The notes below the pieces were generated by a model, which saw only the letters and a program-made list of their open reading frames with translations, was not told the origin of the DNA and made no database searches. A stretch of DNA of 64,000 nucleotides, taken from NCBI GenBank assembly GCA_965203275.1, contig OZ241865.1, positions 2,144,001 through 2,208,000 on the forward strand, read 5' to 3'. The stretch comes from Bdellovibrionales bacterium (GTDB taxonomy: Bacteria; Bdellovibrionota; Bdellovibrionia; Bdellovibrionales; JAUICD01). The position numbers and the translations under genes are program-made. Every line of letters begins with the position of its first letter. Positions within the stretch are counted from its first letter, which is position 1. Of the stretch, positions 3,481 through 51,812 are shown one piece after another.

Positions 3481-3699
3481 TTTTTTATTCTCTTTTAGAT
3501 TCTGCTTAACTCTCAAACAAAAAGTAATTAGGTAGAGGATGGGGCAACGGGAGACTGAAGATCTTCCGCAAATTGAGCTTGCTCCTTAAAAGCAAGCTCA
3601 ATTGAGGACTTCGGAAGGCTCCCGTTGCCCCATCCTCAAGTAAAAATAAAATGGAAAAGCAGAATCGAAGGGCGGTGGGTGGGGTTAGGGAGTTGTTTC
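3481..3699 (+). repeat. structured intergenic element family B, copy 1
   Basis: Nested inverted repeats GATTCTGC/GCAGAATC, GAGGATGGGGCAACGGGAG/CTCCCGTTGCCCCATCCTC, CTTCCG/CGGAAG and AATTGAGCTTGCT/AGCAAGCTCAATT, then a G-rich tail. Homologue at 51006-51225. Confidence 0.8.
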
Positions 3700-4700
3700 A
3701 CTCAAAGTGAACGGACTTTTTAGGTAGCCAGCCTTGATGAAGGAACTTTTTCCTTAACATTTCACTCAAAATGAACCACACCTCTGGTGTGTTTTTTGGT
3801 GTTGCCTGCAAAGGCTTACGCCTTTGACAAAATAGGCAACACCTAAAAAATCTGTTCATTTTGAGTAGGGAGGATCCACTCGTCTCTTTACACGATGTTA
3901 AGGAAAAAGAGTTTCATTTGTAAAGTCGCTTGCTCCTGAGGTAATAAAAGAAATTTTCCCTAACATGGTGTAAAGGAATAAAAGGATCCTCTTTTACTCA
4001 AAATAAATGAATTTTCTAGGCAGTTAGCCTTTGATCGACGGCGAAAGCCGTCGGGCTAACCATTAGAAGGATGTTTTCCTTAACATGTAGTCAAAAAACG
4101 AAGAGATCCTCCCTACTCAAAGTGAACAGGCTTTTGAGACAATGACCATTTTGTCAAAGGCGAAAGCCTTTGCGGTCATTGTCCAAAAGTGGCCAGAGGC
4201 CAGTTCACTTTGAGTGAAAAAGAGGCTGGTTTATTTTTAGTGAACCTTGATGAAGGAACTTTTTCCTTAACATGGTGTTAAGAAACGAAGAGATCCTCCC
4301 TACTCAAAGTGAACAGGCTTTTGAGACAATGACCATTTTGTCCTTAACATGGTGTTAAGAAACGAAAGATCCTCCCTACTCAAAGTGAACAGGCTTTTGA
4401 GACAATGACCATTTTGTCAAAGGCGAAAGCCTTTGCGGTCATTGTCCAAAAGTGGCCAGAGGCCAGTTCACTTTGAGTGAAAAAGAGGCTGGTTTATTTT
4501 TAGTGAACCTTGATGAAGGAACTTTTTCCTTAACATGGTGTTAAGAAACGAAGAGATCCTCCCTACTCAAAGTGAACAGGCTTTTGAGACAATGACCATT
4601 TTGTCAAAGGCGAAAGCCTTTGCGGTCATTGTCCAAAAGTGGCCAGAGGCCAGTTCACTTTGAGTGAAAAAGAGGCATGATGCATTTTGAGTGAAAAAGA
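3693..4700. repeat. cluster of structured element family A (full and partial copies, both orientations)
   Basis: Reverse copy ~3760-3905; forward copies ~3958-4070, 4078-4220, 4265-4341 (truncated), 4342-4480 and 4528-4670. Confidence 0.9.
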
Positions 4701-4780
4701 TAAGCAGGCTTGACTCTTTTAAGGAAACATGAGATTAATCTTTGCATTCAAGGAAAAAAGCTTATATATTAAAGCATCAA

Positions 4781-4825
4781 TAAAATAAAACCATGTAAAA
4801 TAAAACCATGTAAACTAAAACCATG
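4781..4825 (+). repeat. 15-bp tandem repeat x3 (TAAAATAAAACCATG-like) upstream of tatA
   Basis: Read directly. Confidence 0.75.
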
Positions 4826-4843
4826 AAAACCAGGAGGCTATTT

Positions 4844-5038
4844 ATGAGTCCAAGCTTACCTCAAATTCTCATTATATTAGCAATTGTGTTATTGATTTTT
4901 GGTCCTAAAAGGATCCCCGGTATAGGCCGTTCCTTAGGGCAAGCCCTGAGAGGTTTTAAAAAAGGAGTGACGGGGGAAGATGAAGGAGACAAAGCCTATC
5001 AAAATCAAAATGACAACTCGGGCAACAAAAATGAGTAA
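4844..5038 (+). CDS. tatA: twin-arginine translocase TatA/E subunit
   Basis: TM helix plus LIFGPKRIPGIGRSLGQALRGFK; GGAGG RBS before ATG 4844. Confidence 0.93.
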   Translation: MSPSLPQILIILAIVLLIFGPKRIPGIGRSLGQALRGFKKGVTGEDEGDKAYQNQNDNSGNKNE

Positions 5039-5654
5039 ATTTATTTTAAAAGATCGCAATGAAATTCATATTGCTAGAAAATTACTTCATATTATAGGTG
5101 TGGGTATTATTCTAGGTTTTTATCTCTATCTATCCAGAAATGACTCTTTATTTTTTTTAATGCTGACGACAGTATTTCTCTTTACTGTTGAACTGTTAAG
5201 AAAAAAAGTGCCTTTTATTCAAAATATGGTTTTACATGCTTTTAGTCACGTTATGCGAAAAGAAGAAATCAATGGATTTTCAGGCATTTCTTGGCTTTTT
5301 ATTGGTATTTTTATTATTGTTTATCTTTTCCCTATAGAAGTGGTCACCCTATCTCTTTTGATGTTAGGTATAGGAGACCCCGTATGCAATATCATAGGCA
5401 TTAAATATGGTACAGATAAACTAATAGGAAATAAAAGCTTGCAAGGCACCTTAGCTGGTTTTGTAGCTTGCACTATTGTCTCTGCCGTTTATTTTATGCT
5501 GATGGATATTATGTTAGATAGATGGGTGTTGGTAAGCTTACTGTCTGGTTCTATTGGAGCTTTTGCTGAAGCTGTCCCCTTATATTTAGACGATAATTTT
5601 GTTATTCCTGTCATTAATGGCTTGTTATTATGGGGATTATTTATGCTTTTTTGA
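5031..5654 (+). CDS. dolichol/phytol kinase-like polytopic membrane protein (CTP_transf_1 clan)
   Basis: RKLLH, GIGDP, KSLQGTLAG and DDNF motifs. Start set at ATG 5031, overlapping the tatA stop. Confidence 0.85.
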   Translation: MSKFILKDRNEIHIARKLLHIIGVGIILGFYLYLSRNDSLFFLMLTTVFLFTVELLRKKVPFIQNMVLHAFSHVMRKEEINGFSGISWLFIGIFIIVYLFPIEVVTLSLLMLGIGDPVCNIIGIKYGTDKLIGNKSLQGTLAGFVACTIVSAVYFMLMDIMLDRWVLVSLLSGSIGAFAEAVPLYLDDNFVIPVINGLLLWGLFMLF

Positions 5655-5884
5655 TAAAATTTGAATAAATTTTAGATAAGCTTTGAATAAAATATATTTT
5701 ATAAAAGATACCTATTACTTTCTATTGCTACAGCTATTACATATTGTCAATGATGGCAAAAAAAGAGCATGAAACAGAGAGCATGAATCCAATAAACAAA
5801 GCTTGTAAAAAACTTAAATAATAGGTTTAATGAAAGGAATTTAAAACCAAATAAATAAAAAGAGAGAACAGAAAGGGAAAATAC

Positions 5885-6343
5885 ATGAAAAAAGTCAAAA
5901 AAGCTTTTGGTTTATTTTTTTTAGTTATTATTGGTCTTTTGGTGTGGGATATATGGTTCGTGCCGAGCCAATCAGATTTATTTTTTAAACTTTGGGCAGA
6001 AGATCTTAGACAATTGCAACAGGAAGGAAAACTACCTGATACTTTGCAAAATGTGCGTGAGGTTTCTATACAAACTATCAATCAAGAGGCTACAGATTTG
6101 ATGAATAAAGGAAATTCTCCTTTTGTAGATCGACCTGATGGCAGTATGATCTTAGAAATCCTTGTTGATGTTTGGCAGGATGAAGAAGCTGAACATCCAC
6201 AAAGAGGTGTCTTTCTTCAGTATGATCTCATTGCCGAGGATGGCAACACTATTTGGGAGTTATCTAGGACAATCATGTTACCAGATACTCCATCTCTCAT
6301 TCTATCTTGGCTTCCTGAGCTTTTCCCTGAGGTTTCAGAATAA
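5885..6343 (+). CDS. hypothetical protein with N-terminal TM anchor
   Basis: 152 aa ORF with an RBS-like GGGA and a hydrophobic N-terminus. Confidence 0.7.
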   Translation: MKKVKKAFGLFFLVIIGLLVWDIWFVPSQSDLFFKLWAEDLRQLQQEGKLPDTLQNVREVSIQTINQEATDLMNKGNSPFVDRPDGSMILEILVDVWQDEEAEHPQRGVFLQYDLIAEDGNTIWELSRTIMLPDTPSLILSWLPELFPEVSE

Positions 6344-6360
6344 ATTCAGAGAAAAGCTTA

Positions 6361-6612
6361 CTAATCGCGTCTGAGATTTATAGCTAAGTCATCTGTTGCT
6401 ACTGTCATAGAAAAATTCTCAAAAACAGGCTGAGCTTCTTCTGTGGTTATAGCTAAAGGGACCTGCATTAAAGAGGCTTGCATAGAAGAGTCTACAGTGT
6501 TTTGAGGTAACTCTGAAGAAACATAAGCAACAGCTAAACTAAAAACTGCACCAACAAAAATCAAAGAAATAGACCTAAAAATCTTTTCTGTAATATATAC
6601 ATTCTTATTCAT
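6361..6612 (-). CDS. small hypothetical membrane/secreted protein
   Basis: AGGAG RBS and one TM segment. Confidence 0.6.
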   Translation of the reverse strand: MNKNVYITEKIFRSISLIFVGAVFSLAVAYVSSELPQNTVDSSMQASLMQVPLAITTEEAQPVFENFSMTVATDDLAINLRRD

Positions 6613-6873
6613 AATTAATACTCCTTATACGTTCTGTAAATCACTTTATAAATTCTACTATTTAAGTAGCAAATTTCTTGCCAACAAAAAATACTCGATT
6701 TAACACCATCAAAGTATGATCATTTGCATATCATCCCACAAAGAAGTATAAATTAGAGACATTTTTTGTCAAAGACTGACATATTTTGTCCATCAAAAGC
6801 ACTTTAAGTGACAAATGATCACCTTCTAAATAATCAAAACTCCAGTGATGGAGCTAAAATTCTATATAGATGT

Positions 6874-7058
6874 CCTGAGTTTGACAGTTGATTTGCAGAT
6901 GTGGATATCTTTTTTTTAAAGAATACTTTATTTATAGGTGTTAGAGGGATTTATAAGCTTGAATTTTTGGGATTTTGTAAAAAATCCTAGTGACACAAAA
7001 TCTCTTTCGACTCATAACCTACTGCTCAACTTTATTTTTGCAGGCTATCAAACTCAGG
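6874..7058. mobile_element. MITE (non-autonomous IS derivative), copy 1, 185 bp
   Basis: Terminal inverted repeats CCTGAGTTTGACAG...CTATCAAACTCAGG. Near-identical copy at 49531-49721. No transposase. Confidence 0.85.
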
Positions 7059-7079
7059 AAGACCAATTCTATTTATCCT

Positions 7080-7106
7080 TAAGTAAATCCAAAGACCTGC
7101 CGATAA
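7080..7106 (+). promoter_or_regulatory. putative sigma28 promoter of ankyrin gene 1
   Basis: TAAG-N15-GCCGATAA. Confidence 0.7.
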
Positions 7107-7149
7107 AGTATTTAGATAGCAATTTAATCTTTATAAAGGTAGGTATAAA

Positions 7150-7953
7150 ATGCATAGAAAAAAGAAAGTTTATTTATCGTTAGTATTATTTGGTTTGTCT
7201 TGTGTGGCCTTCGGGTTTAACAACTGTAAGAAAAGTAAAGTAGCAAATCAGACATCAAGCTCCACAATGACACACACAAGCCCATCACCAACTCCAACAC
7301 CAGCCTCGGATCCAATACCATTATTTCCAGCTCCAACATACGCTTGCAATCAAGATTATGGTATGAGTTTATATAGAGCTGTTTCAAATGGTGATATAGA
7401 GACTGTAAAGGATTTGCTAGAGACCGGAGCCGATCCTAACAAAGGACATGATCAGGTTTTAACGGCCTCTATTAAACATATAAATATTTTCAAGTTATTG
7501 CTAAAAACTTGTATTGATGTTGATAAAAAAGATCATCAAGGCAGTACGGCTTTAATATGGGCTAGTGGACTAAAGGCAAACATTGAAGCTGTAAAGTTAT
7601 TGCTAGCGGCCGGAGCGGACGTCGATGTTCAAGATACCTTTGGCTATACGGCTTTAATAATGGCTAGTGATAAAGAAAAGCTTGAAATTGTCAGGCTGTT
7701 GCTAGAGGCCGATGCCAATACAGACTTTAAATCGGCTAACGTAGGCTATACGGCCTTAATGTATGCTATTCAAAGAGGTGATATAGAGATTGTAGAGCTA
7801 TTGCTAGAGGCCGGTGCCGATCTCCATATTCAAAATAACTCTGGCCGGACAGCTTTATCAATGGCTAAATCGAGAGTTAGTTTAGGTGGAGATTATACCG
7901 GTATTGTAAGGCTATTAAAGTACAAAATAAACCCGCCGAGGCTTACAGATTAA
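7150..7953 (+). CDS. ankyrin-repeat secreted protein/lipoprotein
   Basis: Signal ending AFGFNNC, a P/T linker and repeated GxTALxxA...IVxLLLxAGAD. Confidence 0.92.
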   Translation: MHRKKKVYLSLVLFGLSCVAFGFNNCKKSKVANQTSSSTMTHTSPSPTPTPASDPIPLFPAPTYACNQDYGMSLYRAVSNGDIETVKDLLETGADPNKGHDQVLTASIKHINIFKLLLKTCIDVDKKDHQGSTALIWASGLKANIEAVKLLLAAGADVDVQDTFGYTALIMASDKEKLEIVRLLLEADANTDFKSANVGYTALMYAIQRGDIEIVELLLEAGADLHIQNNSGRTALSMAKSRVSLGGDYTGIVRLLKYKINPPRLTD

Positions 7954-7972
7954 GACCAATTATATTTATCCT

Positions 7973-7999
7973 TAAGTAAGTCAAAAGCCCTGCCGATAG
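7973..7999 (+). promoter_or_regulatory. putative sigma28 promoter of ankyrin gene 2
   Basis: TAAG-N15-GCCGATAG inside a duplicated upstream block. Confidence 0.65.
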
Positions 8000-8040
8000 A
8001 GTATTTAGATAGCCATTTACTATCTAAAGGTCGGTACAAA

Positions 8041-8733
8041 ATTCCTAGAAAACAGAAAGCTTATTTATCGTTATTATTGTTTGTTTTATCTTGTTTGGCA
8101 TTCGGGTTTAACAATTGTTATAAAGATAAGTTAGACAAGGTCGAAAGCCAGACATCTAGCTCTAAGATGACACACACAAACCCATCACCAATTCAAAGTT
8201 CAACACCGACCATAAACCCATCACCAAATCCCGAAGCAAATCAATCGCTAATCGAAGCCGTATGGGAAGGGAATATCAGTAAAGTAAGAGATGCCTTAAA
8301 TAATGGAGCGAACATTAATTTTCGTTGCAATGATGGCTATGCCAGTACGGCTTTAATGGTTGCTGTTAGAATGGGTGATATAGAGATTGTAGAGCTATTG
8401 CTAGAGGCCGGAGCCAACGTCAATGCTCAAGACATTAATGGCAAGACGGCTTTAATGTGGACATCTTCAATAGCCTTTACTTATTATTTAACATATTGGC
8501 CAGCTATAACGAAAATGAATCTTTGTACTGGTCTTCCTTGCAATGATACTCAGGGACCAATAAGAGAAAATGAACAAAACGTGGAACGTCTTAATATTGC
8601 AAAGTTATTGCTAGAGGCCGGAGCGGATGTCAATCTTCAAGACAACACTGGCAAGACGGCTTTATATTATGCTAGATCAGAAGATCAAGAGGATATTGTA
8701 AGGCTATTAAAAGAGTCCGGAGCTACAGAATAA
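8041..8733 (+). CDS. ankyrin-repeat lipoprotein paralogue (ATG replaced by ATT at 8041; alternative TTG start at 8077)
   Basis: Ankyrin repeats. The leader is homologous to the 7150 gene, but AAAATGCATAGA has become AAAATTCCTAGA. Confidence 0.85.
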   Translation: MPRKQKAYLSLLLFVLSCLAFGFNNCYKDKLDKVESQTSSSKMTHTNPSPIQSSTPTINPSPNPEANQSLIEAVWEGNISKVRDALNNGANINFRCNDGYASTALMVAVRMGDIEIVELLLEAGANVNAQDINGKTALMWTSSIAFTYYLTYWPAITKMNLCTGLPCNDTQGPIRENEQNVERLNIAKLLLEAGADVNLQDNTGKTALYYARSEDQEDIVRLLKESGATE

Positions 8734-8816
8734 TACCAATTCTATAAAGCCATGTATCTTTTGACTTTCTTAAAGCTGTGTTGCACTTTAAAGTAAGCTA
8801 GAGTGGGAGACACAGC

Positions 8817-9506
8817 TTGAATATCAAACAATATGTAGCTTATTATAGAGTATCAACATCAAGGCAAACTATTGGCTTGCAAGCTCAAGAGACAATGGTC
8901 AAAGCCTATCTTAAAGATCAATGGCCCCCTATCAAGTCATTCACAGAAAAGGAAAGTGGCAAGTGTGATAAGAATCGACCGCAATTGCAATTGGCTTTGG
9001 AGTATTGCCAACAGCACAAGGCTACTTTGATAGTGGCTACATTGAGTCGATTAAGTCGGGATTTGCATTTTATAACGTCTCTATCCAAATCTAAGATAGA
9101 TTTTGTATGTTGTGATATGCCGGATGCAACACCATTGACAATAAACTTGATGGGAGCAATAGCTCAATATGAAAGAGAAACTATATCTAAGAGGACAAAG
9201 CGGGCTTTGGAAGAGTTAAAAAGTCGTGGGGTAGAACTTGGAGCAAATAATCCTAAGGTAAGGGCAGGTCTTGAGAAATATCGTGAAAGACAAAAAAAAG
9301 AACAAGATAACAAGGTAAAGCCTCAAAAAGTTAAAGCAAACTCTCAAATAAATGAACCATCAAAGATCGAGCAAGCTGATCAAAAACATATTCAAGCATT
9401 ACAAATATTGAGACGAAACAAACATTCATGGAAAAGGATTGCCTACGAATTTAACCTGCACGGGTTTCAAACACGTTTAGAGGCAAGTGGCATCGAACAT
9501 CAATGA
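8817..9506 (+). CDS. serine recombinase (resolvase/invertase family); C-terminal tip probably frameshifted
   Basis: YYRVST catalytic Ser, ESG..RPQL, LSRLSR and ERETISKRTK. A GKWHRTS motif lies in an adjacent frame at ~9482-9503. Confidence 0.9.
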   Translation: MNIKQYVAYYRVSTSRQTIGLQAQETMVKAYLKDQWPPIKSFTEKESGKCDKNRPQLQLALEYCQQHKATLIVATLSRLSRDLHFITSLSKSKIDFVCCDMPDATPLTINLMGAIAQYERETISKRTKRALEELKSRGVELGANNPKVRAGLEKYRERQKKEQDNKVKPQKVKANSQINEPSKIEQADQKHIQALQILRRNKHSWKRIAYEFNLHGFQTRLEASGIEHQ

Positions 9507-9533
9507 CGTAACGTATAAGAGAAAGGACTTTTA

Positions 9534-10409
9534 ATGATGCGGGTGATCTTTATTGTAGGACCTACAGGGGTAGGCAAATCAGATTTTGCGACTCATTGGG
9601 CTAAGTCTGTCAATGGTCACATCTTAAATGCTGATAGTGTTCAATGCTTTAAATCTCTTAATATTGGTGCTAATAAACCTTCAAGCTTATTGCAAGCAGA
9701 AGTTCCACATCATTTATTTGATATTGTAGAAGAAGGGCAGTCTTTTACTGCCGGAGATTTCAGAAGGACTGCACTTAAACAGCTAAAAAAACTTACAATA
9801 CAAAAAGTTTCTCATGTGTTTGTTGTAGGAGGTAGTGGTTTTTATTTACAAGCCTTACTTAAAGGCATGCCACAATTCCCTAAAGCCTCAACTCAAGAAA
9901 GGCAAAATATTATGAAGGACTTAAAAACTTATGGTTTAAATTTTCTCTATCAGGAGCTACAAAGCAAAGATCCTCTTTATGCTAAAAAAGTGCATCCACA
10001 AGATCATTACAGGATTGTAAGAGGGGTAGAAATCTTACGTATACAACCTAAGACGATCACTCAAATAGAAAGTGCATTTCAACCTGATGTTTTTCCATAC
10101 CCTAAAACTCTCATTGGTTTGAAATGTGAAAGAAAGCAACTAAAGAAAAACCTTCAAATACGCACAAATCAAATGTTGCAAGCAGGTCTCATAGAGGAAG
10201 TGGAAGCTTTATTGAAAAAAGGTTTAAGAGATTGGCCTGTTTTGCAAAGTGTAGGCTATAAACAGGTGATAGAACTTTTAGAAGGACGTATGAAACAAGA
10301 GGAGTTAATAGAAGGTATTCTCCGAGCAAGTATGAAACTTGCTAAAAAACAAATGACATGGTTCCGTAATAAATATTCTGATATTCATTGGATTAGTTTA
10401 TTTCCCTAA
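9534..10409 (+). CDS. miaA: tRNA dimethylallyltransferase
   Basis: GPTGVGKS, ADSVQ, VPHHL, VGGSGFY and AKKQMTWF motifs. Confidence 0.96.
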   Translation: MMRVIFIVGPTGVGKSDFATHWAKSVNGHILNADSVQCFKSLNIGANKPSSLLQAEVPHHLFDIVEEGQSFTAGDFRRTALKQLKKLTIQKVSHVFVVGGSGFYLQALLKGMPQFPKASTQERQNIMKDLKTYGLNFLYQELQSKDPLYAKKVHPQDHYRIVRGVEILRIQPKTITQIESAFQPDVFPYPKTLIGLKCERKQLKKNLQIRTNQMLQAGLIEEVEALLKKGLRDWPVLQSVGYKQVIELLEGRMKQEELIEGILRASMKLAKKQMTWFRNKYSDIHWISLFP

Positions 10410-10604
10410 AAATAAAAAGGCTTTTAAATCCATCATCTGTCTACAAGGGTGTAGGGTTGCCTATCTAACAATCTTTAAAAGTATAATGCATTTTGAATGA
10501 TTTTTTTTATCAATAAATTTGTTGAAAGTGATCTAAGTCAAGAAGTCTAGTCTGTATAAAATAGTCCAAAAAGTATAGTTATTCAATACAGCAGTTAAAA
10601 TAAG

Positions 10605-14824: not shown

Positions 14825-15172
14825 GAACTTTTTCCTTAACATGATGTAAAGAAACGAAGGGATCCTCCATACTCAAAGTGGTCAGGCTTTTGAGGAGATG
14901 AGCATTTTATCGACGGCGAGAAAATAAACATCTTGTTTCCTTAACATGGTGTTAAGAAATGAGGACATCCTTCTTCCTAAAATTGAACAGGCTTTTGAGG
15001 GCATCAGGCAGAAAAGGCATTTTGTTTCCTTAACATGGTGTTAAGAGACGAGAGGATCCTCCCCTACTAAAAGTAAACGGACTTTTGAGGTAGCCAGCCT
15101 TTGATCGACGGCGGTAGCCGTCGGGCTGGCTACCCAAAAGTGACCAGAGGTCAGTTTACTTTTAGTGAAACA
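14825..15172 (+). repeat. family A element cluster (two partial, one full copy ~15028-15170)
   Basis: CCTTAACATGGTGTTAAG...GGATCCTCCCCTACTAAAAGTAAAC...GTTTACTTTTAGTGAAAC. Confidence 0.9.
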
Positions 15173-18469: not shown

Positions 18470-19362
18470 TTTCACTAAAAGTGGTCTGTTTCCCTAAAAG
18501 TAAACTGACCTCTGTTTCACTAAAAGTAAACTGACCTCTGGTCACTTTTGGGCGATGACCACGACGACTGTCGTCGTCGATAAAATGGTCATCACCTCAA
18601 AAGTCCGTTTACTTTTAGTAGGGGAGGATCCTCTCGTCTCTTAACACAATGTTAAGGGTTTGTCTCACTAAAAGTAAACTGACCTCTGGTCACTTTTGGG
18701 CGATGACCACGACGACTGTCGTCGTCGATAAAATGGTCATCACCTCAAAAGTCCGTTTACTTTTAGTAGGGGAGGATCCTCTCGTCTCTTAACACAATGT
18801 TAAGGGTTTGTCTCACTAAAAGTAAACTGACCTCTGGTCACTTTTGGGCGATGACCACGACGACTGTCGTCGTCGATAAAATGGTCATCACCTCAAAAGT
18901 CCGTTTACTTTTAGTAGGGGAGGATCCTCTCGTCTCTTAACACGATGTTAAGGGTTTGTCTCACTAAAAGTAAACTGACCTCTGGTCACTTTTGGTCATC
19001 ACCTCAAAAGTCCGTTTACTTTTAGTAGGGGAGGATCCTCTCGTCTCTTAACACGATGTTAAGGGTTTGTCTCACTAAAAGTAAACTGACCTCTGGTCAC
19101 TTTTGGGCGATCGATAAAATGGTCATCACCTCAAAAGTCCGTTTACTTTTAGTAGGGGAGGATCCTCTCGTCTCTTAACACGATGTTAAGGGTTTGTCTC
19201 ACTAAAAGTAAACTGACCTCTGGTCACTTTTGGGCGATGACCACGACGACTGTCGTCGTCGATAAAATGGTCATCACCTCAAAAGTCCGTTTACTTTTAG
19301 TAGGGAGGATCCCTTCGTTTCTTTACTCCATGTTAAGGAAAAAGTTCCTTCATCAAGGCTGG
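18470..19362 (-). repeat. tandem array of six family A elements (148-bp period; units 4 and 5 internally deleted)
   Basis: CACTAAAAGTAAACTGACC recurs at 18518, 18666, 18814, 18962, 19073 and 19200. Confidence 0.95.
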
Positions 19363-26621: not shown

Positions 26622-26712
26622 AGCTTTTTCTTTAACATTTCACTCAAAATGCATCATGCCTCTGGCATGTTTTTGGACAATGACCGCGTTTGTTTCACTA
26701 AAAATAAACAAA
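26622..26712. repeat. partial family A element between convergent mod1 and res
   Basis: TTAACATTTCACTCAAAATGCATCATGCCTCTGGCATGTTTTTGG is shared with ~51331-51375. Confidence 0.8.
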
Positions 26713-43672: not shown

Positions 43673-43675
43673 AAC

Positions 43676-43744
43676 AATATTTTTTTGTAGTGATGAGCTT
43701 ATATTGTTGATAGTAGCTATTTCTTACCTTAAAAATTTATTTTT
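43676..43744. repeat. ~70-bp direct repeat, copy 2 (immediately upstream of the toxin gene)
   Basis: Near-identical to 40872-40940. Confidence 0.88.
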
Positions 43745-43825
43745 TACAAAAACTTCACTGATGTTTAAATTCAGAAATCAATAGATGTTATTTTAAATAT
43801 AAAACCTCTGATCAACAAAACAGCT

Positions 43826-44821: not shown

Positions 44822-44835
44822 TTTGTTTTACCTTG

Positions 44836-45570
44836 CTACTTTTTATAGTTAGAAAATTGCCTATTAATATGTGTATTGCCTAACCAGACATCAGAGATAA
44901 TGCGAGCATCTTGACTACGGCTATGTGGAATCACTTTTACGATATAATCTTTTTTTAGCCATTTTTCAAGCTCTTCTTTTTTTGAGGTTTTTTCATCAAC
45001 GCCTTTAAGACGAATAAACCAAGTGCCTTCCACTTCTAAAACATTTGAACCTATTAATTTTGTAATCTTATAATACCCTGGTTTGAAATTTAATAATGAA
45101 TTCATGTCTTTTTCTCTCTTATATTCCGGACTCAAATTTTCAAAAATTTCTTTAAGACCTGTTTTTGATGCATTTTCAAAATATGTACGAATATTCTCTG
45201 CGTCTTTTATCAAGTATTTTATAGAAAGGTCCTCAATTTCTCCAAAGTCTTTAGTTTCTTGAATTTGATGTATGCATAAGAAAAGGCTTTTAAATAAATT
45301 TCTTGTCTCTAGTATAAAGTCATTAAGCCTTACATGATCTTTTTTGTGCAAATAATAGTTAAACCCATAAGGTTCTTTTAGTAGCATCTTTAAATTATGA
45401 TAGTCTTTTACATTCTTTTTTTCACACACATCTAAAAATTGAGATATTGTCATTTGATTTATATCATTTAATGTTTCTCTAACAGTTGTCGCAGGTCTTT
45501 TTTTCTCTGTGCCATCAGGAACAAATTGTCCTGTCCTAGCATCTCTTGTTCTTTTTGATTGCTTTGCCAT
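44836..45570 (-). CDS. hypothetical protein with C-terminal thermonuclease(SNase)-like domain
   Basis: GGAGG RBS; KITKLIGSNVLEV..IRLKGVD...RIISDVWLG..IN. Confidence 0.6.
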   Translation of the reverse strand: MAKQSKRTRDARTGQFVPDGTEKKRPATTVRETLNDINQMTISQFLDVCEKKNVKDYHNLKMLLKEPYGFNYYLHKKDHVRLNDFILETRNLFKSLFLCIHQIQETKDFGEIEDLSIKYLIKDAENIRTYFENASKTGLKEIFENLSPEYKREKDMNSLLNFKPGYYKITKLIGSNVLEVEGTWFIRLKGVDEKTSKKEELEKWLKKDYIVKVIPHSRSQDARIISDVWLGNTHINRQFSNYKK

Positions 45571-45698
45571 AACAACCTCCTTAAATATATTTTAAATAAT
45601 CTAAATAAATTTTAATTATTAAATAATTATAGTAATAAATTAAGCTTTGTCAAATATTTGTTTAAAAAATTGATAAGTAATCATGTAATTCAAAAGCT

Positions 45699-45915
45699 TC
45701 ATCTATGTTTAAAATCCTTAAGTTTTTGTAGTGGTGGGGAGTAGATGGAGGTGATGGTTGTGTTTATTTTTTGTTTGAAGCATTCAATGAGCTTTTTGTT
45801 GGCCTCGACAAATTGCCTTTCCTCCTCAATCTTACTCACAATCTTTCTTTGGACCTCCAATGGTGGTAATGGAATTTTAATTTTTGAAACATTAGTTTTT
45901 GAAACCTCCTTAAAT
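45699..45915 (-). pseudogene. 3' remnant of an HsdS / fused M-S type I-like gene
   Basis: FKEVSK...KIPLPPLEVQRKIV..IEEERQFVEANKKLIECFKQKI; cut off by the MITE end. Confidence 0.8.
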
Positions 45916-45943
45916 CCTGAGTTTGATAGCCAGCAAAAATAAA
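45916..45943. mobile_element. solo MITE/IS end (inverted)
   Basis: CCTGAGTTTGATAGCCAGCAAAAATAAA matches the reverse complement of the MITE right end with one mismatch. Confidence 0.8.
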
Positions 45944-46031
45944 TTTGAGAGATTTCAATAGGTTATAAGCGGAATAAGATTTTGTGCCACTACAATGTGA
46001 ACTTCAAACTTTTACCAATGGAATTGAAATT

Positions 46032-46673
46032 TTATTTTTCAAGAAAATATTTGTTAAATAAGTCATTAAAAACTTGCTTATGTACTTTTTTAAGTTCCTT
46101 ATCTTTCTCTATTTCAATGGAATATAACTTAATAAAATCATCTGGTTTAGCGACCAATCTTAAATAATATCTCATAGTTTTTATTAATCCATTGCAAATC
46201 AATTGACATCCTGTTTCTCTTTCTATTTGTTTTTTGATTCTGTTGATTTTTCCTTTGTAATCTAGTGTATAGGGATAAGGTTGCTCTAAAGACCTTGTCA
46301 GCCAGCCACTTTCAGCCATTGAAGGCAAGTCTATTTTTTTCAAAACAGGAGTTATGAATTGAGTATCTACAGTTCTGCCTGAAAATCCACCTGCCATACG
46401 AGATTGATGCTTTCTTATATCTTGAGATGAATCATAAATTTTTTGAACAAGCAATGTTATAAGAACACTAAATATCCCTTTTTGATTAAAACTTTCTTTT
46501 GCAATTGTATCTAAATAAGCTTTTTCCTTTTTAGAAAGGTTATTGCAATGTGAGTTGTTTTTCTCTTGATAACACTTTAGAAGTATTTTGTCTTGCGACA
46601 GTTGCTTTTTCATTGTATTTATCCAAAATTTGTAATTTGATCTGTCTTGCCAGTTCATAAACCATTGGTACAC
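46032..46673 (-). pseudogene. putative type II restriction endonuclease, probably internally deleted (true start uncertain)
   Basis: DIRKHQ..GGFSGRTVDT..AESGWLTRSLEQPYPY; coupled to the C5 MTase; no PD-(D/E)xK core visible. Confidence 0.5.
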
Positions 46674-47604
46674 AAACAGAATTTCCTATTTGTTTATAAG
46701 CTTCTGTATTTGATTTATGAATTTTAAAACTATCTGGAAACCCCATAATTCTATAACATTCTCGAAGTGTCAACTTTCTTACTCTATCTTTATCAGGTAG
46801 ACAAATAAAAAACCTTCCTGATATTTCTTGAGAAGGTATTGTAGGATGAACCCCATAGACAGAATATATCCGATTAGGTTGCTTGTGTACTCTTGATAAA
46901 TGTATTGTATTTGGTCGTACGCCTTTTTTGCGAATAGTTTTGTTTCTATAACCTACAAAATAAAGATGAGATTTGGTTTGCTTGATAGGCTTCTTAATAA
47001 GCGTGTAGTCTTTTTTTTCAAGATATTTCATTCTATTATTTTCTTCTTCTAAAAAATATAAAAGAGGTTTGATATGATGTGAGGTTTTGAGTTTTGAAAA
47101 ATTAAAACGATGTTTTCTAGTACCAATAATAATGACTCTTTCTCTATTTTGTGGAACACCATAATTAACAGCATTTTGTAAAGAAAAAGCAACATGATAT
47201 CCTAAATTTTCTAAGGATTCTAAAATAACTTTAAATGTTTGTCCTTTGTTGTGATAGAGTAAGTATTTAACGTTTTCTAATAACACTATTTTGGGTTTCT
47301 TTTTTGCAATAATCTTGCAAATATAGAAAAACATTGTACCTCTTGTATCATTAAACCCATCTCTTCTGCCACAAATACTAAATGGTTGACAAGGGAAGCC
47401 TGCTGTTAAAACGTCATGGTCTGGGATTAAATAAGGATCAATGTTTGCTATATCCCCTTGAGGCCATTCCCCATAATTTTCGAGGTATGATTCCTGACAA
47501 TATTTATTGATTTCACAAGACATAACACATTTGTAACCGCATCTTGTAAAACCTATTCTAAAACCACCAATACCAGCAAATAAATCTATAAATTTATAAT
47601 CCAT
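46540..47604 (-). CDS. DNA (cytosine-5) methyltransferase
   Basis: FAGIGG, GFPCQPFS, ENV, QNRER and QIGNSV motifs. Confidence 0.95.
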   Translation of the reverse strand: MDYKFIDLFAGIGGFRIGFTRCGYKCVMSCEINKYCQESYLENYGEWPQGDIANIDPYLIPDHDVLTAGFPCQPFSICGRRDGFNDTRGTMFFYICKIIAKKKPKIVLLENVKYLLYHNKGQTFKVILESLENLGYHVAFSLQNAVNYGVPQNRERVIIIGTRKHRFNFSKLKTSHHIKPLLYFLEEENNRMKYLEKKDYTLIKKPIKQTKSHLYFVGYRNKTIRKKGVRPNTIHLSRVHKQPNRIYSVYGVHPTIPSQEISGRFFICLPDKDRVRKLTLRECYRIMGFPDSFKIHKSNTEAYKQIGNSVCVPMVYELARQIKLQILDKYNEKATVARQNTSKVLSREKQLTLQ

Positions 47605-47801
47605 TAAACTCTCTCTCCTAAGAGAAAATTATTATTAATAATTACCAAATAACAACATATTTATATTTCATATAGGGTATGTTCTGTTTATTTCAAAATG
47701 AATCTCTATTTAGTTGTTTTTGTTGAATATCCCATTTGTTTTCTAAATATTCATTATAAATCCCCATAAAGAAGCTTGTTTTTGAAATTGAAAAATATTC
47801 T

Positions 47802-48020
47802 TTATTTTCTTCTTGTGTAATTGTGGGAATAGCCAGTAATTGGACCTTTGGTTTTTGGACCTCCGGCATGTTGATTTTTCTTTGTGTTTTCCCACTTTTG
47901 AGCAGCTTTTTGATTTGAAAACGTTTGTTCAATTTTAAAATTTTTCATCCCTGAAAATTCATTTTTTAACTCTTTTTCACGTCTTTCAGGATTATTTGTA
48001 ATTCCATATCTTTTAGGCAC
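47802..48020 (-). CDS. small GIY-YIG-like protein
   Basis: GGAGGTG RBS with GTG start; YGITNNPERRE...AAQKWE. Confidence 0.55.
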   Translation of the reverse strand: MPKRYGITNNPERREKELKNEFSGMKNFKIEQTFSNQKAAQKWENTKKNQHAGGPKTKGPITGYSHNYTRRK

Positions 48021-48117
48021 TTTACACCTCCTTTAAAATTTTAAAATATAGTTTAATAATTTAATTTTGATTAAAAATATAATGTTAGATCCAATTTTGT
48101 CAAGATATTTGAGGTTT

Positions 48118-48232
48118 TTATGCTTCTACAATGGGGGAGTAGATGGAGGTGATGCTTGTGTTTATTTTTTGTTTGAAGCATTCAATGAGCTTTTTGTTGG
48201 ACTCAACAAATTGCCTTTCCTTCTCAATCTTA
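48118..48232 (-). pseudogene. second copy of the HsdS/M-S 3' tail
   Basis: KIEKERQFVESNKKLIECFKQKINTSITSIYSP, near-identical to ~45735-45833. Confidence 0.75.
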
Positions 48233-48394
48233 ACTCTTTTTAATCTCATCAATAATTTAATCTTATAGTCTTGTATGTTACGCAATTTCAAATTGCAATT
48301 TTCATTTGATTTATTTAAGTTTAAATTAAATAAAAGGCTTAACTTTTTTCTAAGCATATTATATTGTAAGAAATAATAATAAAATTAAAGTTTA

Positions 48395-48613
48395 TTGTAC
48401 AAGTTATTTCACATTGATCAAAAAGATCTTTTTGATCCTTCTGTAAATATTGTTGCTGGCATAAGGTGGCTGTTTCGTAAGAAGGAGATTGCAGATGCAA
48501 AATTAGGAGAAGCTTCTTGGATAGAGACTATTATGTTCTATAAAGGCTATCCTACAATGAATGGCAACGGAGTTAGGAATTTTATCCGAGAGTATGAAAA
48601 ATTAAAAAATTAG
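48395..48613 (+). pseudogene. C-terminal fragment of an SLT/lytic transglycosylase-like protein
   Basis: DLFDPSVNIVAGIRWL motif; no convincing start. Confidence 0.55.
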
Positions 48614-48624
48614 GAAGATTAAAA

Positions 48625-49041
48625 ATGCAAAATAAGTTATTGGTTTTTATGTTCGTTTTCTTTTGTTCATTTAATGTCAATGCATTGATTATATCTCATT
48701 GTTTTAATAATCGTTCCATTAAGGTAGAATGTGTAAATTATGATAATGGCAATGCCTCCTTAGGAGGTGAATTTGTGATTAAATCTCAAGGTAAAGACAT
48801 AAAATATGGATTTGGATCCAGAAGAGCCTGGGGGCCGGATTGGTGTCCTTCTGCTTTAAAACAAATCAAGCATGTTATGTCTGCTCCTAGATTTTGTATA
48901 GAAGCCGAAATGGGTGCTATGGCTGATGGTATAGATGATATAGAATTCAGAGACCTACTAATGATAGAAGGTGTTTTTAGTTCAAAAGGTCAGTGGACTT
49001 ATTTCGACGAATATAAACGTCAAGGTGTACAACCTTTATAA
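48625..49041 (+). CDS. secreted Cys-containing hypothetical protein
   Basis: Signal peptide ending VNA; AGGA RBS. Confidence 0.7.
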   Translation: MQNKLLVFMFVFFCSFNVNALIISHCFNNRSIKVECVNYDNGNASLGGEFVIKSQGKDIKYGFGSRRAWGPDWCPSALKQIKHVMSAPRFCIEAEMGAMADGIDDIEFRDLLMIEGVFSSKGQWTYFDEYKRQGVQPL

Positions 49042-49139
49042 TCTTCATTCTGAATGAAGTGATATGCTTTTATTAAAGCGATGATTCAATTAAGATATTG
49101 TTCATTTTTAAGATATAAGATATTTGACTTCTTATAAGG

Positions 49140-49517
49140 TTATAGGAAAATTCTATAATCTGTATTAAAAATTTCTGCTAACTTTTTCGCAAAAGACTTG
49201 TTAATCTTTTTTTCACCTTTTTCAATTTGAGTGATAAAAGAAGGATCAACCTTTAAAATTTTTGCCAACTTTTTTTGAGATAGATTTTTTTCACGTCTTG
49301 AAGCTCTCAAAACGATAGCTTGTTGACTGGTTTCACTGATCAAATCAGTCAAAGCATCTCTCCAGGGAATACTTTCTTCACTTTTATATTCTTCTAACAT
49401 ATCAGACAAGGCTTTTGCCTTTTTCTTTGGAATAAGATATAATTTAGCCTTTTTATTTCCAATCCAAATAGACACTCTTTCGTCTTTAGTAGGGTGCTTT
49501 TTCATGGCTTCCGACAT
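49140..49517 (-). CDS. XRE HTH protein (orphaned antitoxin)
   Basis: GAGG RBS before ATG 49517; LRASRREKNLSQKKLAKIL...ITQIEKG HTH. Confidence 0.85.
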   Translation of the reverse strand: MSEAMKKHPTKDERVSIWIGNKKAKLYLIPKKKAKALSDMLEEYKSEESIPWRDALTDLISETSQQAIVLRASRREKNLSQKKLAKILKVDPSFITQIEKGEKKINKSFAKKLAEIFNTDYRIFL

Positions 49518-49530
49518 AATAAACCTCATT
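49486..49530 (-). pseudogene. C-terminal remnant of a RelE-like toxin
   Basis: An overlapping frame reads NEVYYVGSHEKAPY*, truncated by the MITE. Confidence 0.6.
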
Positions 49531-49721
49531 CCTGAGTTTGACAGTTGATTTGCAAATTTGGGCATTTTCTTTTTTAAGAATGCTTTATTTATAGGCATTA
49601 GAGGGATTTGCAAGCTTGAATTTTTGGGATTTTGTAAAAAATCCTAGTGGCACAAAATCTCTTTCGACTCATAACCTACTGATTTTACTCAACTTTATTT
49701 TTGCAGGCTGTCAAACTCAGG
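49531..49721. mobile_element. MITE copy 2, 191 bp
   Basis: Perfect 14-bp TIR CCTGAGTTTGACAG/CTGTCAAACTCAGG. Confidence 0.88.
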
Positions 49722-49988
49722 ATATATTTTAAGAAAACACAAGATGTTTTTTCAAGATGGCAATTAAAGAAGCTCTAAAAGGCTTAAAATGTAGTGTAAA
49801 TTTTACAAAAAATAATTTATTTGACTCTTTGATGTTTTGATTGTTCTCTCAATATATAAAAAACAAACTATGGACTATCAATAATTTCCACAGAAGAATA
49901 GACTTTTCTTAACTTAATTTTATCAATGCAGAAATAAAACGGACATATTATAAAAATCATAGTAGAAAATAATAAAAGGTATTAATAA

Positions 49989-50972
49989 ATGAAATGCTTA
50001 GTCACAGGTGCTACAGGGTTTGTAGGTCGATACTTAACTAAACTTCTTGTGCAGAAAGGTTATCAAGTTAGGGTTTTTTGCCGGGATACTTCAAAAGCTC
50101 CTCCTCAAACAGAAGCTTATTCAGGAGATATTTGTCAGGTAGACACTCTGATGAAAGCTACCTCTGGTGTAGATATAGTTTATCATCTAGCAGGTTTTAT
50201 AGGCTACTGCCAACACCACCACAAAATTATGCAACAGGTCAATGTGCAAGGCACACAAAATGTGATTGAGGCTTGTACACATCATCGTATTCAAAGACTT
50301 GTTCATATAAGCTCTACGTCGGCAATTGGTGCTTCAATTACTCCAGTCACTCTTAATGAAGATTCTCCTTTTACTATAGCTCACCTGAATATGGGTTACT
50401 TTCAAACTAAAAAACAAGCTGAAGAACTTGTCACAAAACAAGTCAAAAAAGGCAAAATAGATGCTGTCATTCTTAATCCCTCTGCCATTTACGGAGCAGG
50501 AGATATGATCAAAGGAAGTCGTAAAATACAACAACTAGTTGCAAAAGGTTACTGTCCTTTTTACCCTCCAGGAGGTGTGAATGTAGTAGATGTGGAAAGT
50601 GTGGTTAAAGCTATCCACACTGCTACCACTAAAGGTCGTAAAGGTGAAAGATATATTTTATCCGGTGAAAATATGTTCATTAAAGATTTATTTTGTATTA
50701 TTGCAGAGGAATCTGGTTGCACTCCGCCATGGATCCCTCTTTCTAAAAAACTTTTAAAAGCACTTGGAATGCTAGGCAATCAATTAGAAAAAATAAATGA
50801 AAACTTCCCCATCACATCTTCAAATATCTTAATATCTGTGCTTTACCATTGGTTTGATGCAAGTAAGGCAAAGTCAGAATTGAATTTTAAACCTCAAGTT
50901 GCAAGGACAGCTATTCAAAAAAGTATTAAATGGGCTAAAAATAATCTTAAGTTTAATAACTCAAAAATATAA
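49989..50972 (+). CDS. NAD-dependent epimerase/dehydratase (extended SDR, dihydroflavonol-reductase-like)
   Basis: TGATGFVG, HLAG and YFQTK motifs. Confidence 0.9.
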   Translation: MKCLVTGATGFVGRYLTKLLVQKGYQVRVFCRDTSKAPPQTEAYSGDICQVDTLMKATSGVDIVYHLAGFIGYCQHHHKIMQQVNVQGTQNVIEACTHHRIQRLVHISSTSAIGASITPVTLNEDSPFTIAHLNMGYFQTKKQAEELVTKQVKKGKIDAVILNPSAIYGAGDMIKGSRKIQQLVAKGYCPFYPPGGVNVVDVESVVKAIHTATTKGRKGERYILSGENMFIKDLFCIIAEESGCTPPWIPLSKKLLKALGMLGNQLEKINENFPITSSNILISVLYHWFDASKAKSELNFKPQVARTAIQKSIKWAKNNLKFNNSKI

Positions 50973-51005
50973 ACCTCACAAGAGAGTGGGAATGGTATAT
51001 ACAAA

Positions 51006-51225
51006 GAAACTATCCCTAACCCCACCCCCCGCCCTTCGATTCTGCTTTTCCATTTGTATGTTTTTTATGAGTGGAATGCGGAGGCAGGCTTCCGAAGTCC
51101 TCAACCTTCGCTTGCTTTTGGAGAGCAAGCGGGTCTGCGGAAGATCTCCAGCCTGCCTCCGCCTCCCACTCATAATACTCATGCTTTTTTGAAAATTACG
51201 CAGAATCTAAAAAGAATAAAAAAAC
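51006..51225 (-). repeat. structured element family B, copy 2
   Basis: Reverse complement is colinear with 3481-3699 and has substituted but still paired stems. Confidence 0.8.
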
Positions 51226-51242
51226 AAAAAAACGAATGCTTT

Positions 51243-51812
51243 GTTTCCTTAACATGGTATAAAGAAATGAAGGGATCCTTTTTCTGGGATCCGGCAGTCG
51301 GGCAAACCGGCAACAGAAGGAACTTTTTCCTTAACATTTCACTCAAAATGCATCATGCCTCTGGCATGTTTTTGGGCAATGACCGCAAAGGCTTTCGCCT
51401 TTGACAAAATGGTCATTGCCTCAAAAATCTATGCATTTTGAGTAGAGGAGGATCTCCTTGCTTCTGACACCATGTTAGGGAAAATTTCTTTTATTATCTC
51501 AGGAGCAAGCAGGCTACTTGTCAATCTGGGATCTGGGATCCGGGATCCGGCAGACAGGCATCAGAAAGAACTCTTTTTCCCTAACATGTAGTTAAGAGAC
51601 AAAGAGATTCTTCCTACTCAAAGTGAACAGGCTTTTGAGGGCATCAGGCAGAAAAGGCATTTTGTTTCCTTAACATGGTGTTAAGAGATGAGGAGATCCT
51701 CCCTACTAAAAGTAAACGGACTTTTGAGGTGATGACCATTTTATCGACGACGACAGTCGTCGTGGTCATCGCCCAAAAGCAACCAGAGGTTGGTTTACTT
51801 TTAGGGAAACAA
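51243..51812. repeat. family A element cluster with GGATCCG heptamers
   Basis: Reverse full copy ~51340-51480, forward full copy ~51668-51810, plus partials. Confidence 0.9.

What the first reader, a model, noticed from the sequence alone, without database searches (positions are those of the whole stretch)
3693..51812. Multicopy ~140-bp branched-hairpin element (family A) with compensatory changes in four stems
Seen: clusters at 3.7-4.7, 14.8-15.2, 18.5-19.4, 26.6 and 51.2-51.8 kb share one architecture. It runs CTTAACA-TGG-TGTTAAG hairpin, GATCCTC linker, outer stem, middle stem, apical hairpin and a small xxCC-AGA-GGxx hairpin. Sequence changes while pairing is kept. Outer stem: CTCAAAGTGAAC/GTTCACTTTGAG, CTAAAAGTAAAC/GTTTACTTTTAG, CTCAAAATGCAT/ATGCATTTTGAG. 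Middle stem: GACAATGACC/GGTCATTGTC, TAGCCAGCC/GGCTGGCTA, GGTGTTGCCT/AGGCAACACC, GTGATGACCA/TGGTCATCGC (G-T wobble). Apical stem: CAAAGGC/GCCTTTG, CGACGGC/GCCGTCG, CGACGAC/GTCGTCG, always closing a C-GNNA-G loop (GAAA, GTAA, GGTA, GACA). Small stem: TGGCC/GGCCA, TGACC/GGTCA, CAACC/GGTTG, CACACC/GGTGTG, CATGCC/GGCATG. Inference: the fold is maintained in a single strand with fixed polarity. It may be a novel ncRNA class or a REP/REPIN-like ssDNA mobile unit recognised by an HUH enzyme. No partner gene is in the window.
Basis: partly seen in the sequence, partly recalled or inferred. Interest (0 to 1): 0.88.

Follow-up and report, generated by a model that had tools for sequence, protein, structure and literature searches.

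The report
Self-pasting folded DNA repeat family
A 145-base non-coding DNA unit that keeps a three-armed fold while its letters change has pasted itself about 1,300 times into this bacterial genome, usually replacing a few bases of the landing site, and no known copying enzyme was found, so it may spread by a route not yet described.

Summary
The element is real: 21 matches in the window, 1,319 (744 full-length, 5.9% of the genome) in G000, an uncultured Bdellovibrionales relative; otherwise only in its genus. New here: insertions leave no fixed target duplication but mostly delete 4-20 target bases (up to ~330), with microhomology and a sloppy joint, and repeatedly hit older copies and other selfish DNA. 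No RAYT/IS200, reverse transcriptase, IS110 or Ku was found in G000. The four-helix-bundle gene is a target, not a partner: the relative that seemed to share both carries the element only on contaminant contigs. Relatives lacking it carry their own look-alike structured families. Best reading: a non-autonomous selfish repeat moved as a folded single strand (DNA slightly favoured over RNA) and pasted by microhomology-bounded replacement; enzyme unknown. The scan noted this family before in at least five other windows of this genome. New variant of a known kind; interest 0.6.

The parts
3396..3417 (.). Heptamer run (CCGGGAT/CTGGGAT type), same family as the arms of the four-helix-bundle cassettes; frequent neighbour of family A
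   Evidence: 234 of 290 heptamer arrays have an A copy within 80 nt, against 20% of random intergenic sites
3526..3696 (-). Family B: second structured repeat (~170-190 nt, long bulged hairpin, head TCCCTAAC like A's); target of A
3697..3735 (+). Chimeric A piece: reverse-complement tail running into outer-stem 5' arm (model 37-75), one of 44 double-tailed-type junctions in the genome
3760..3905 (-). Full family A copy, left member of a head-to-head pair
3906..3955 (.). Head-to-head spacer: two leaders joined over a remnant of family B's apex (GCTTGCTC)
3956..4063 (+). 5' piece of an older A copy (model 1-107), cut by the next copy
4076..4219 (+). Full A copy
4263..4342 (+). 5' piece of A (model 1-80)
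4341..4482 (+). Full A copy
4526..4669 (+). Full A copy used as reference: head motif 4528-4536; outer stem 4565-4577/4653-4665; middle stem 4588-4597/4624-4633 on a 6-7 bp base helix with a bulged A; apical stem 4605-4611/4616-4622 with GAAA loop; small hairpin 4640-4652 with AGA loop; tail 4667-4674
   Evidence: RNA -63.1, z -9.4; DNA -41.5, z -9.8 kcal/mol
14832..14920 (+). 5' piece of A (model 1-89)
14937..15006 (+). 5' piece of A (model 1-70)
15026..15170 (+). Full A copy (GGTA loop allele)
18515..18953 (-). Three tandem full A copies (18515-18657, 18664-18805, 18812-18953), 148-nt period, tail joined directly to head
18961..19191 (-). Two tandem A copies with internal deletions (18961-19064, 19071-19191)
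19199..19340 (-). Full A copy heading the tandem array
26638..26688 (-). 3' piece of A (model 96-144) whose tail is joined into the head of an opposite-strand copy (one of 112 such joints in the genome)
51011..51180 (+). Family B copy
51245..51281 (+). A head only (model 1-37)
51337..51482 (-). Full A copy
51525..51546 (.). Heptamer run between A copies
51577..51646 (+). 5' piece of A (model 1-70)
51666..51809 (+). Full A copy (GACA loop, CAACC/GGTTG small stem)

Best explanation
Family A is a non-autonomous, copy-and-paste selfish repeat. SHOWN: it is a polarised unit (variable leader, invariant CC(T/C)TAACAT head, purine-rich linker, three-way junction with four covarying stems, about 8-nt tail); it lands in older copies, in family B, in heptamer/four-helix-bundle cassettes, in Rpn genes and in unique DNA; landing leaves no fixed duplication, usually deletes 4-20 target bases and sometimes hundreds, often uses a few bases of identity at either end, and the 5' joint is hypervariable. 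INFERRED: the unit travels as a folded single strand whose fold and head are read by a protein that releases or protects it with a defined 3' end and a ragged 5' end; its unpaired ends anneal to a nicked, broken or replicating target by short imperfect homology and the host's repair or replication polymerase fixes it in place of the target bases between the two joints (SPDIR-like or target-primed). Copies then swap stem modules by recombination, and only fold-keeping mosaics go on spreading. Single-stranded DNA is favoured about 60:40 over RNA because no reverse transcriptase was found in G000, G003 or G004. The releasing protein is unknown; Rpn nucleases are a possible source of breaks but are not a linked partner.
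For: Copy number, clustering, extragenic location. Covariation and module shuffling: arms of one stem share 0.74-0.93 normalised information, apical versus outer or small stem 0.18-0.34. Polarity. 217 of 283 3'-cut pieces are followed by the head of a same-strand copy and 112 of 221 5'-cut pieces follow a tail. Of 100 distinct single insertions with both joints on a known target (90 old A, 8 B, 2 four-helix-bundle): 49 delete 4-20 nt, 25 more than 20, 5 lose 0-3, 21 show overlaps that are mostly tandem or duplication artefacts. 19 clusters had an empty paralogous site; the clear cases show no duplication and losses of about 8-330 bp. At four hot spots 19 of 42, 7 of 31, 16 of 31 and 24 of 41 copies carry distinct joints, while 51 near-invariant element columns depart by 0.55%. 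No Y1 transposase, RT, IS110 or Ku in G000. SPDIR: ssDNA anneals at simple or mismatched microhomologies and is integrated as replacements of variable size, more so without RecJ/ExoX (bioRxiv 10.1101/2024.07.02.601687, passages). G000 has DprA and ComF homologues.
Against: No new insertion was caught in a strain comparison, so footprints come from paralogues and nested copies, where later recombination between two same-strand copies could also delete the DNA between them and inflate large deletions. Many nested cases may descend from few events moved as composites. G001 loops are mostly GNRA with T-A closure (40 and 35 of 61), which reads as RNA-like. G000 is 90% complete, so an enzyme may be missing; 854 G000 proteins without a G003 homologue and 622 of 866 shared ones were not scanned. 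SPDIR is described as rare and needs no fixed head motif. Strand bias to replication could not be tested (no skew).
Confidence: 0.6

Rival explanations
1. REPIN/IS200-like element moved by an HUH (Y1) transposase that is divergent, lost or unassembled in G000; deletions arise afterwards by recombination between copies.
For: Folded-strand polarity, C-GNNA-G loops in G000 (their stability in DNA is recalled, not found), invariant head motif, extragenic spread; G001 has one Y1 gene.
Against: 0 PF01797 matches in G000, G003, G004 even at E 0.5; G001's gene is IS200-type, has no A copy in its locus and no homologue in G000 or G003; unit is not an inverted doublet (732 tandem versus 150 inverted neighbours); small deletions and sloppy joints also at unique sites.
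Confidence: 0.14
2. SINE-like retroelement: a stable structured RNA (trimmed to about 8 nt past the stem) is reverse-transcribed from its 3' end at target breaks, with template jumps making the ragged 5' joint.
For: Fixed 3' tail and variable 5' leader, G-T bias on one strand and GNRA-rich loops in G001, leaders that echo the target, head-to-head pairs 102 versus tail-to-tail 14 in G000; G001 holds group II intron-type and retron-type RTs.
Against: No RT in G000, G003, G004, G001's RTs have no G000 match; 199 of about 570 G000 loops are GNYA; few true 5'-truncated new copies; the head-to-head excess is confined to G000's family-B hot spot (2:1 in 500 kb of G001) and 112 opposite-strand joints into heads offset it.
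Confidence: 0.14
3. A host-serving structured ncRNA or mRNA-stabilising element amplified for function.
For: Strong fold and polarity conserved across two species; heads often lie just after a co-oriented gene (107 versus 32 within 150 nt).
Against: Copies cut each other and break genes; no orientation preference to local genes overall (147 of 311); no Rfam match; relatives use unrelated sequences.
Confidence: 0.05
4. Neutral repeat whose paired changes come only from quasi-palindrome template switching or arm-to-arm gene conversion.
For: Double-tailed chimeras (44) show switching across the outer stem; transversion-type paired changes are common.
Against: Bulges, asymmetric internal loop and both apical loops are never erased or inverted (2 of 631, 0 of 715); G-T bias; the one palindrome at the head is not perfected; does not explain spread.
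Confidence: 0.04
5. Integron-like attC/attI site moved by a tyrosine recombinase (head resembles YYYAAC-5 nt-GTT; recalled consensus).
For: AAC and GT are the most conserved head letters with 5-nt spacing; G000 and G001 each have two tyrosine recombinases.
Against: The element's 3' end is not complementary to its head; joints are not at a fixed position; no A copy beside the four recombinase genes; G003 and G004, which have look-alike families, have no tyrosine recombinase.
Confidence: 0.03

Closest known systems
bcr1 repeat of the Bacillus cereus group (as reviewed in PMC3184786, passages)
   Same: About 155 bp, intergenic, multicopy, branched fold with two stem-loops kept by compensatory changes, non-conserved positions, no transposase named in the passages seen.
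   Different: bcr1 is flanked by 5-bp direct repeats and is transcribed; family A shows no fixed duplication, deletes target bases, nests in itself, has a separate invariant head and about 1,300 copies. Sequence homology not tested.
REP/REPIN with RAYT transposases (PMC3116915, passages; PMC3733652 listing only)
   Same: Non-autonomous, extragenic, folds as single strand, tandem clusters.
   Different: Not an inverted REP doublet; no RAYT in the genome or beside the copies; deletion and microhomology footprint.
MITEs such as ERIC, RUP, Correia, Nezha, RPE (PMC3184786, passages)
   Same: 100-200 bp structured non-coding mobile repeats.
   Different: No terminal inverted repeats, no target-site duplication, polar ends.
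SPDIR microindels of Acinetobacter baylyi (bioRxiv 10.1101/2024.07.02.601687, passages; 10.1101/2023.11.22.568220, listing)
   Same: Single strands integrated at simple or mismatched microhomologies as replacements, recurrent hot spots, no dedicated recombinase.
   Different: SPDIR is a rare mutation process from arbitrary DNA; no self-propagating structured element is described in the passages seen.
Rpn/YhgA-like nucleases (PMC5350276, abstract start and passages)
   Same: Multicopy in G000, G001, G003; cut non-specifically leaving 3'-OH ends proposed to prime template switching; heavily hit by A in G000.
   Different: No fixed link: 16 of 18 intact Rpn genes have A nearby in G000 but 1 of 10 have family C nearby in G003.

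Membership tests
REP/REPIN-RAYT | RAYT (Y1 HUH) gene in the genome with the repeats beside it | tested here: not met
   0 in G000 (90% complete); G001's Y1 gene has no copy in its locus
REP/REPIN-RAYT | Unit is a doublet of short inverted palindromes forming one hairpin | tested here: not met
   144-nt three-way junction; 732 tandem versus 150 inverted neighbours
REP/REPIN-RAYT | Multicopy, extragenic, single-strand fold | tested here: met
MITE | Terminal inverted repeats | tested here: not met
   head and tail unrelated; only head-to-head pairs have inverted outer ends
MITE | Target-site duplication | tested here: not met
bcr1 | About 150 nt branched fold kept by compensatory changes | tested here: met
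bcr1 | 5-bp direct repeats flanking each copy | tested here: not met
bcr1 | Transcribed | not testable with these tools
   no RNA run listed
bcr1 | Sequence homology to bcr1 | not tested
   no bcr1 sequence was fetched
Retron / group II intron / SINE-like | Reverse transcriptase available in the genome | tested here: not met
   PF00078 0 in G000; G001 and G002 RTs have no G000 match
Integron attC | Complementary core sites at the two ends and a fixed crossover point (recalled) | tested here: not met
Integron attC | Linked IntI recombinase | tested here: inconclusive
   two tyrosine recombinases in G000, none with a copy within 1.5 kb; not typed as IntI
IS110 / IS91 / IS605 ends | Cognate transposase or TnpB | tested here: not met
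   IS110 0; TnpB zinc finger only inside a 1,365-aa Cas12-sized ORF; IS91 0 but the control was silent, so that part is inconclusive
Any Rfam family | Score above gathering threshold | tested here: not met
Four-helix-bundle (23S IVP) heptamer cassette | Element travels with the gene | tested here: not met
   0 copies in 280 kb around 17 such genes of G004 proper; orientation mixed in G001; in G000 A interrupts the gene
SPDIR-type integration | Replacement bounded by short, possibly mismatched homologies | tested here: met
   (qualitative; not every joint shows microhomology)
SPDIR-type integration | Lagging-strand annealing; dependence on ssDNA exonuclease loss | tested here: inconclusive
   no usable replication skew; RecJ/ExoX status not examined

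The most novel reading that the evidence does not exclude
This family of Bdellovibrionales hosts a class of selfish structured single strands (A and B in G000, C in G003, D and E in G004) that share a design (pyrimidine-AAC head, unpaired linker, long covarying fold, short tail) but not sequence, and that spread with no transposase or reverse transcriptase of a known family, by surviving as folded strands and being patched into the chromosome at microhomologies by host repair or competence machinery.
Probability: 0.3. Interest if true: 0.85.

Novelty: new variant of a known kind. Interest (0 to 1): 0.6.

Why it matters
How small structured bacterial repeats without a cognate transposase (bcr1, ERIC-like and others) move is a long-open question. 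This family gives an unusually rich natural record: 629 distinct alleles, recurrent hits at the same sites, empty paralogous sites and parallel unrelated families in sister genomes. The footprint (polar ends, deletion, microhomology, sloppy joint) makes a testable prediction of a repair-type route, and if no dedicated enzyme is needed it would be a new way for non-coding DNA to be selfish and a possible basis for short single-strand insertion tools. It also occupies 6% of a small genome and breaks Rpn, four-helix-bundle and resolvase genes.

Tried and rejected
Partner search in five family genomes or subsets: Y1 transposase, RT, tyrosine recombinase, IS110 (65), IS91 (66, control silent), TnpB, Ku, GxxExxY (80), GIY-YIG (55, one UvrC-sized hit each), DUF559 (tail of a broken long gene, no copies beside it), a narrow HUH motif scan: no candidate. 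Four-helix-bundle gene: seemed to co-occur 3 of 3 versus 0 of 2, rejected because G004's element contigs C1, C4, C11 look like contaminants (second rplB copy 96% identical to G001's; median protein identity to G000 69% versus 51%; shown directly for C11 only). Rpn as linked partner: rejected. Conserved gene linkage between A in G000 and C in G003: 29 of 796 one-to-one homologues, about 25 expected. Pfam scan of 244 of 866 proteins shared by G000 and G003 (filtered for size, no membrane helix, no P-loop or Rossmann motif, under 62% identity, basic; 11 lost at block edges, 9 from a ribosomal operon left out; E 1e-14): only Rpn, a small resolvase, Cas1/2/4, Fic and housekeeping or competence genes; resolvase copies are not flanked by A except where A cuts them. 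Test that the tail's next bases steer target choice: confounded by site clustering, inconclusive. Two-ended break repair as general model: weakened. Replication-strand bias: not testable (p 0.09). Runs: no RNA holder listed; four contig sets laid on L037 gave no clean empty allele; the one replacement joint (3396-3671) has raised depth and 7-9 differences and may be a paralogue. Promoter and terminator scan uninformative. Paper searches with no hit; one irrelevant hit; one search listed no paper on these repeats. Only about 600 kb of G001 (2.94 Mb) and 280 kb of G004 proper were read, which leaves their gene content largely open.

Full report
Setting. The window is G000:C1:2144001-2208000, a 2.57-Mb single contig, 35% G+C, 90% complete. 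The same-genus genome G001 is titled a Bdellovibrionales MAG. A run recorded as sponge metagenome holds near-identical pieces of G000 (X7). Window genes around the clusters are ordinary (CinA, TatA-like, pilin-like, NAD kinase, methylases, PdxA, TatA read by eye); no mobility gene but a small resolvase at 8817-9506.

Observation. An iterated nhmmer profile gives 1,319 non-overlapping matches in G000, 744 full-length, in 437 clusters, 5.9% of the genome, 681 plus and 638 minus, 10 inside ORFs, 0 in the reversed genome. In 629 distinct full copies the outer, base, middle, apical and small stems covary (Watson-Crick 0.87-0.99 at variable pairs, 0.36-0.91 expected); the head palindrome does not (each pair equals expectation; perfect in 115 of 629). 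On 63 copies from G000, G001 and G004 contigs RNAalifold finds 42 pairs, 31 with two-sided changes, and leaves the head unpaired; shuffles and slid partners are far below, though relatedness is not modelled. Stem alleles reassort: apical alleles share only 0.18-0.34 normalised information with outer or small stems, against 0.74-0.93 between arms of one stem.

Polarity and molecule. The interior is inverted against the head in 2 of 631 cases and the AGA loop in 0 of 715; the apical loop is G-N-N-A or a 5-nt variant in nearly all. Mismatches favour G-T on that strand: 275 versus 141 cells, 22:7 and 12:5 among distinct alleles. Bulges and the T-rich internal loop persist, so arm-to-arm perfection alone is not the cause. 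Loops do not settle DNA or RNA: G000 has C-G closure with 339 GNRA and 199 GNYA, a pattern I recall as stable in DNA (no paper found); G001 has 40 of 61 GNRA and 35 of 61 T-A closures. No Rfam family reaches threshold. No RNA run was listed.

Distribution. DNA search of 31 genomes and a covariance model over 151 genomes of the order hit only G000, G001 and G004 (stricter filters, 21 candidates scored per genome). G004's hits lie on contigs C1, C4 and C11; C11 carries a second rplB 96% identical to G001's and these contigs are closer to G000 than the rest of G004, so I treat them as contamination from the same genus. In 500 kb of G001 there are 109 matches, 61 full.

How it lands. Partial copies are mostly older copies cut by newer ones. 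The 3' side has a tail of about 8 nt, consensus AAACA(A/G)AC, followed by diverse targets, or a shorter visible tail where the target shares bases (CAGAGG in the small loop, ATGTTAAG in an opposite head). The 5' side has a 12-13 nt leader core plus a variable part that often echoes the target. Of 100 distinct single insertions with both joints mapped, 74 delete 4 nt or more (mode 13-15), 5 lose 0-3 and 21 show overlaps, mostly from tandem arrangement; none defines a fixed duplication. Nineteen of 437 clusters have an empty paralogous site; clear cases lose about 8, 10 and 30 bp at single or tandem insertions and 130-330 bp where head-to-head pairs sit in Rpn genes. At four hot spots the joint varies over a few bases in many ways while the element's fixed columns depart by 0.55%, which points to repeated sloppy events rather than one ancestor. 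Of 957 tails, 586 abut another A, 46 family B, 16 a heptamer run and 309 other DNA. The 86 head-to-head spacers examined mostly carry a remnant of B's apex; this excess is special to G000 and I do not build on it.

Partner search. Nothing in the HUH, RT, IS110, TnpB, Ku, GxxExxY, GIY-YIG or DUF559 classes fits (see Tried and rejected). In G000 the tie is real: all 32 tblastn hits have copies nearby, nearly always co-oriented, and many genes are cut. But G004 proper has at least 17 such genes with heptamer arms and no copy in 280 kb around them, and G001 shows mixed orientation, so the gene is a target. Rpn genes are enriched neighbours in G000 (16 of 18 versus 137 of 481) but not of the analogous family in G003 (1 of 10 versus 60 of 380). 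Rpn nucleases leave 3'-OH ends proposed to prime template switching (PMC5350276, passages), so they remain a possible source of breaks.

Sister families. G003, read nearly whole, has no A, B or heptamers but has family C: 124 nt, 217 matches, 145 full, 1.4% of the genome, tandem, head CCTTGAAC, linker, long bulged hairpin with visibly paired allele changes, short tail; it cuts 3 of 6 truncated Rpn genes. G004 proper has further families, one inserted in four-helix-bundle genes. G000's family B shares the head TCCCTAAC. G003 and G004 have no RT, Y1 transposase or tyrosine recombinase. A Pfam scan of 244 of the 866 proteins shared by G000 and G003 found no dedicated mobility enzyme, only Rpn, a resolvase, Cas1/2/4 and DprA. 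That these families share one mechanism is inference from design; only A's footprint was measured.

Mechanism. Shown: polar folded unit, repeated pasting, deletion and microhomology at joints, absence of the usual enzymes within the limits above. Inferred: a folded single strand with a defined 3' end anneals by its free ends and is fixed by host synthesis in place of target bases, as in SPDIR (bioRxiv 10.1101/2024.07.02.601687, passages) or target-primed copying; a protein reads the head and loops. I give 0.6 to this, 0.14 each to a hidden HUH transposase and to a retro route, and small shares to a host ncRNA, pure gene conversion and an attC-like site.

Known relatives and novelty. It works like bcr1 (size, branched fold, compensatory changes; PMC3184786, passages) and like REPINs (PMC3116915, passages) but fails their membership tests on direct repeats, doublet form and RAYT. 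I found no paper on these repeats in searches of an open-access library that lacks most subscription papers; no supplements were read. The scan reported this family from at least five other windows of G000; this report adds the insertion footprint, the contamination check, the non-covarying head and the sister families. Verdict: new variant of a known kind, interest 0.6; most novel reading 0.3 likely, 0.85 if true.

Noticed in passing
window 3526-3696 (-) and 51011-51180 (+); genome-wide: Family B: second structured repeat, 107 segments, 46 of at least 140 nt, long bulged hairpin with paired allele changes and a head like A's; 82 of 107 have A within 60 nt.
   Followed up: partly
G003 (L096-L175), e.g. 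C1:1232700-1233300: Family C: 124-nt tandem structured repeat, 217 matches, same design as A but no profile match to it.
   Followed up: partly
G004 proper, L038-L051: Further repeats: one beginning AAGGTCTTCCGAACG and a ~66-nt unit inserted within four-helix-bundle genes.
   Followed up: no
G004:C1, C4, C11 (L011-L013): Probable contaminant contigs from a G001-like organism; C11 has a second ribosomal protein operon.
   Followed up: partly
G000:C1:242285 and G001:C1:2592483 (L095, L094): ORFs of 1,365 and 1,343 aa with a TnpB/Cas12-type zinc finger, absent from G003 and G004; matches earlier notes on a Cas12a3-type gene.
   Followed up: no
window 8817-9506; about 13 copies or fragments in G000: Stand-alone small serine resolvase with a shared upstream segment, often just after ankyrin genes; several fragments are cut by A near codon 36-38.
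   Followed up: partly
window 25313-47604: Defence-like island: five N6/N4 methylases, a type III restriction helicase, AAA_15 plus DUF3226 TOPRIM pair, TIR domain next to an 8xMP protein, a C5 methylase; 300-bp duplications between methylase genes.
   Followed up: no
G000 whole contig: No coherent replication skew (gene-to-gene autocorrelation near 0), consistent with heavy rearrangement; G003 and G004 show no tyrosine recombinase at all, including XerC/D.
   Followed up: no
G003:C1:470200-471600 (L119): CRISPR array with a 36-nt repeat near cas1/cas2; a second 36-nt repeat array elsewhere.
   Followed up: no
G001 L016: 603-aa RT with a long N-terminal extension, retron-like by eye, with an A copy 450 nt downstream.
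   Followed up: no
window 57265-58663: Repeated small coiled-coil genes with internal 21/33-nt repeats and shared flanks, members of large paralogous families.
   Followed up: no
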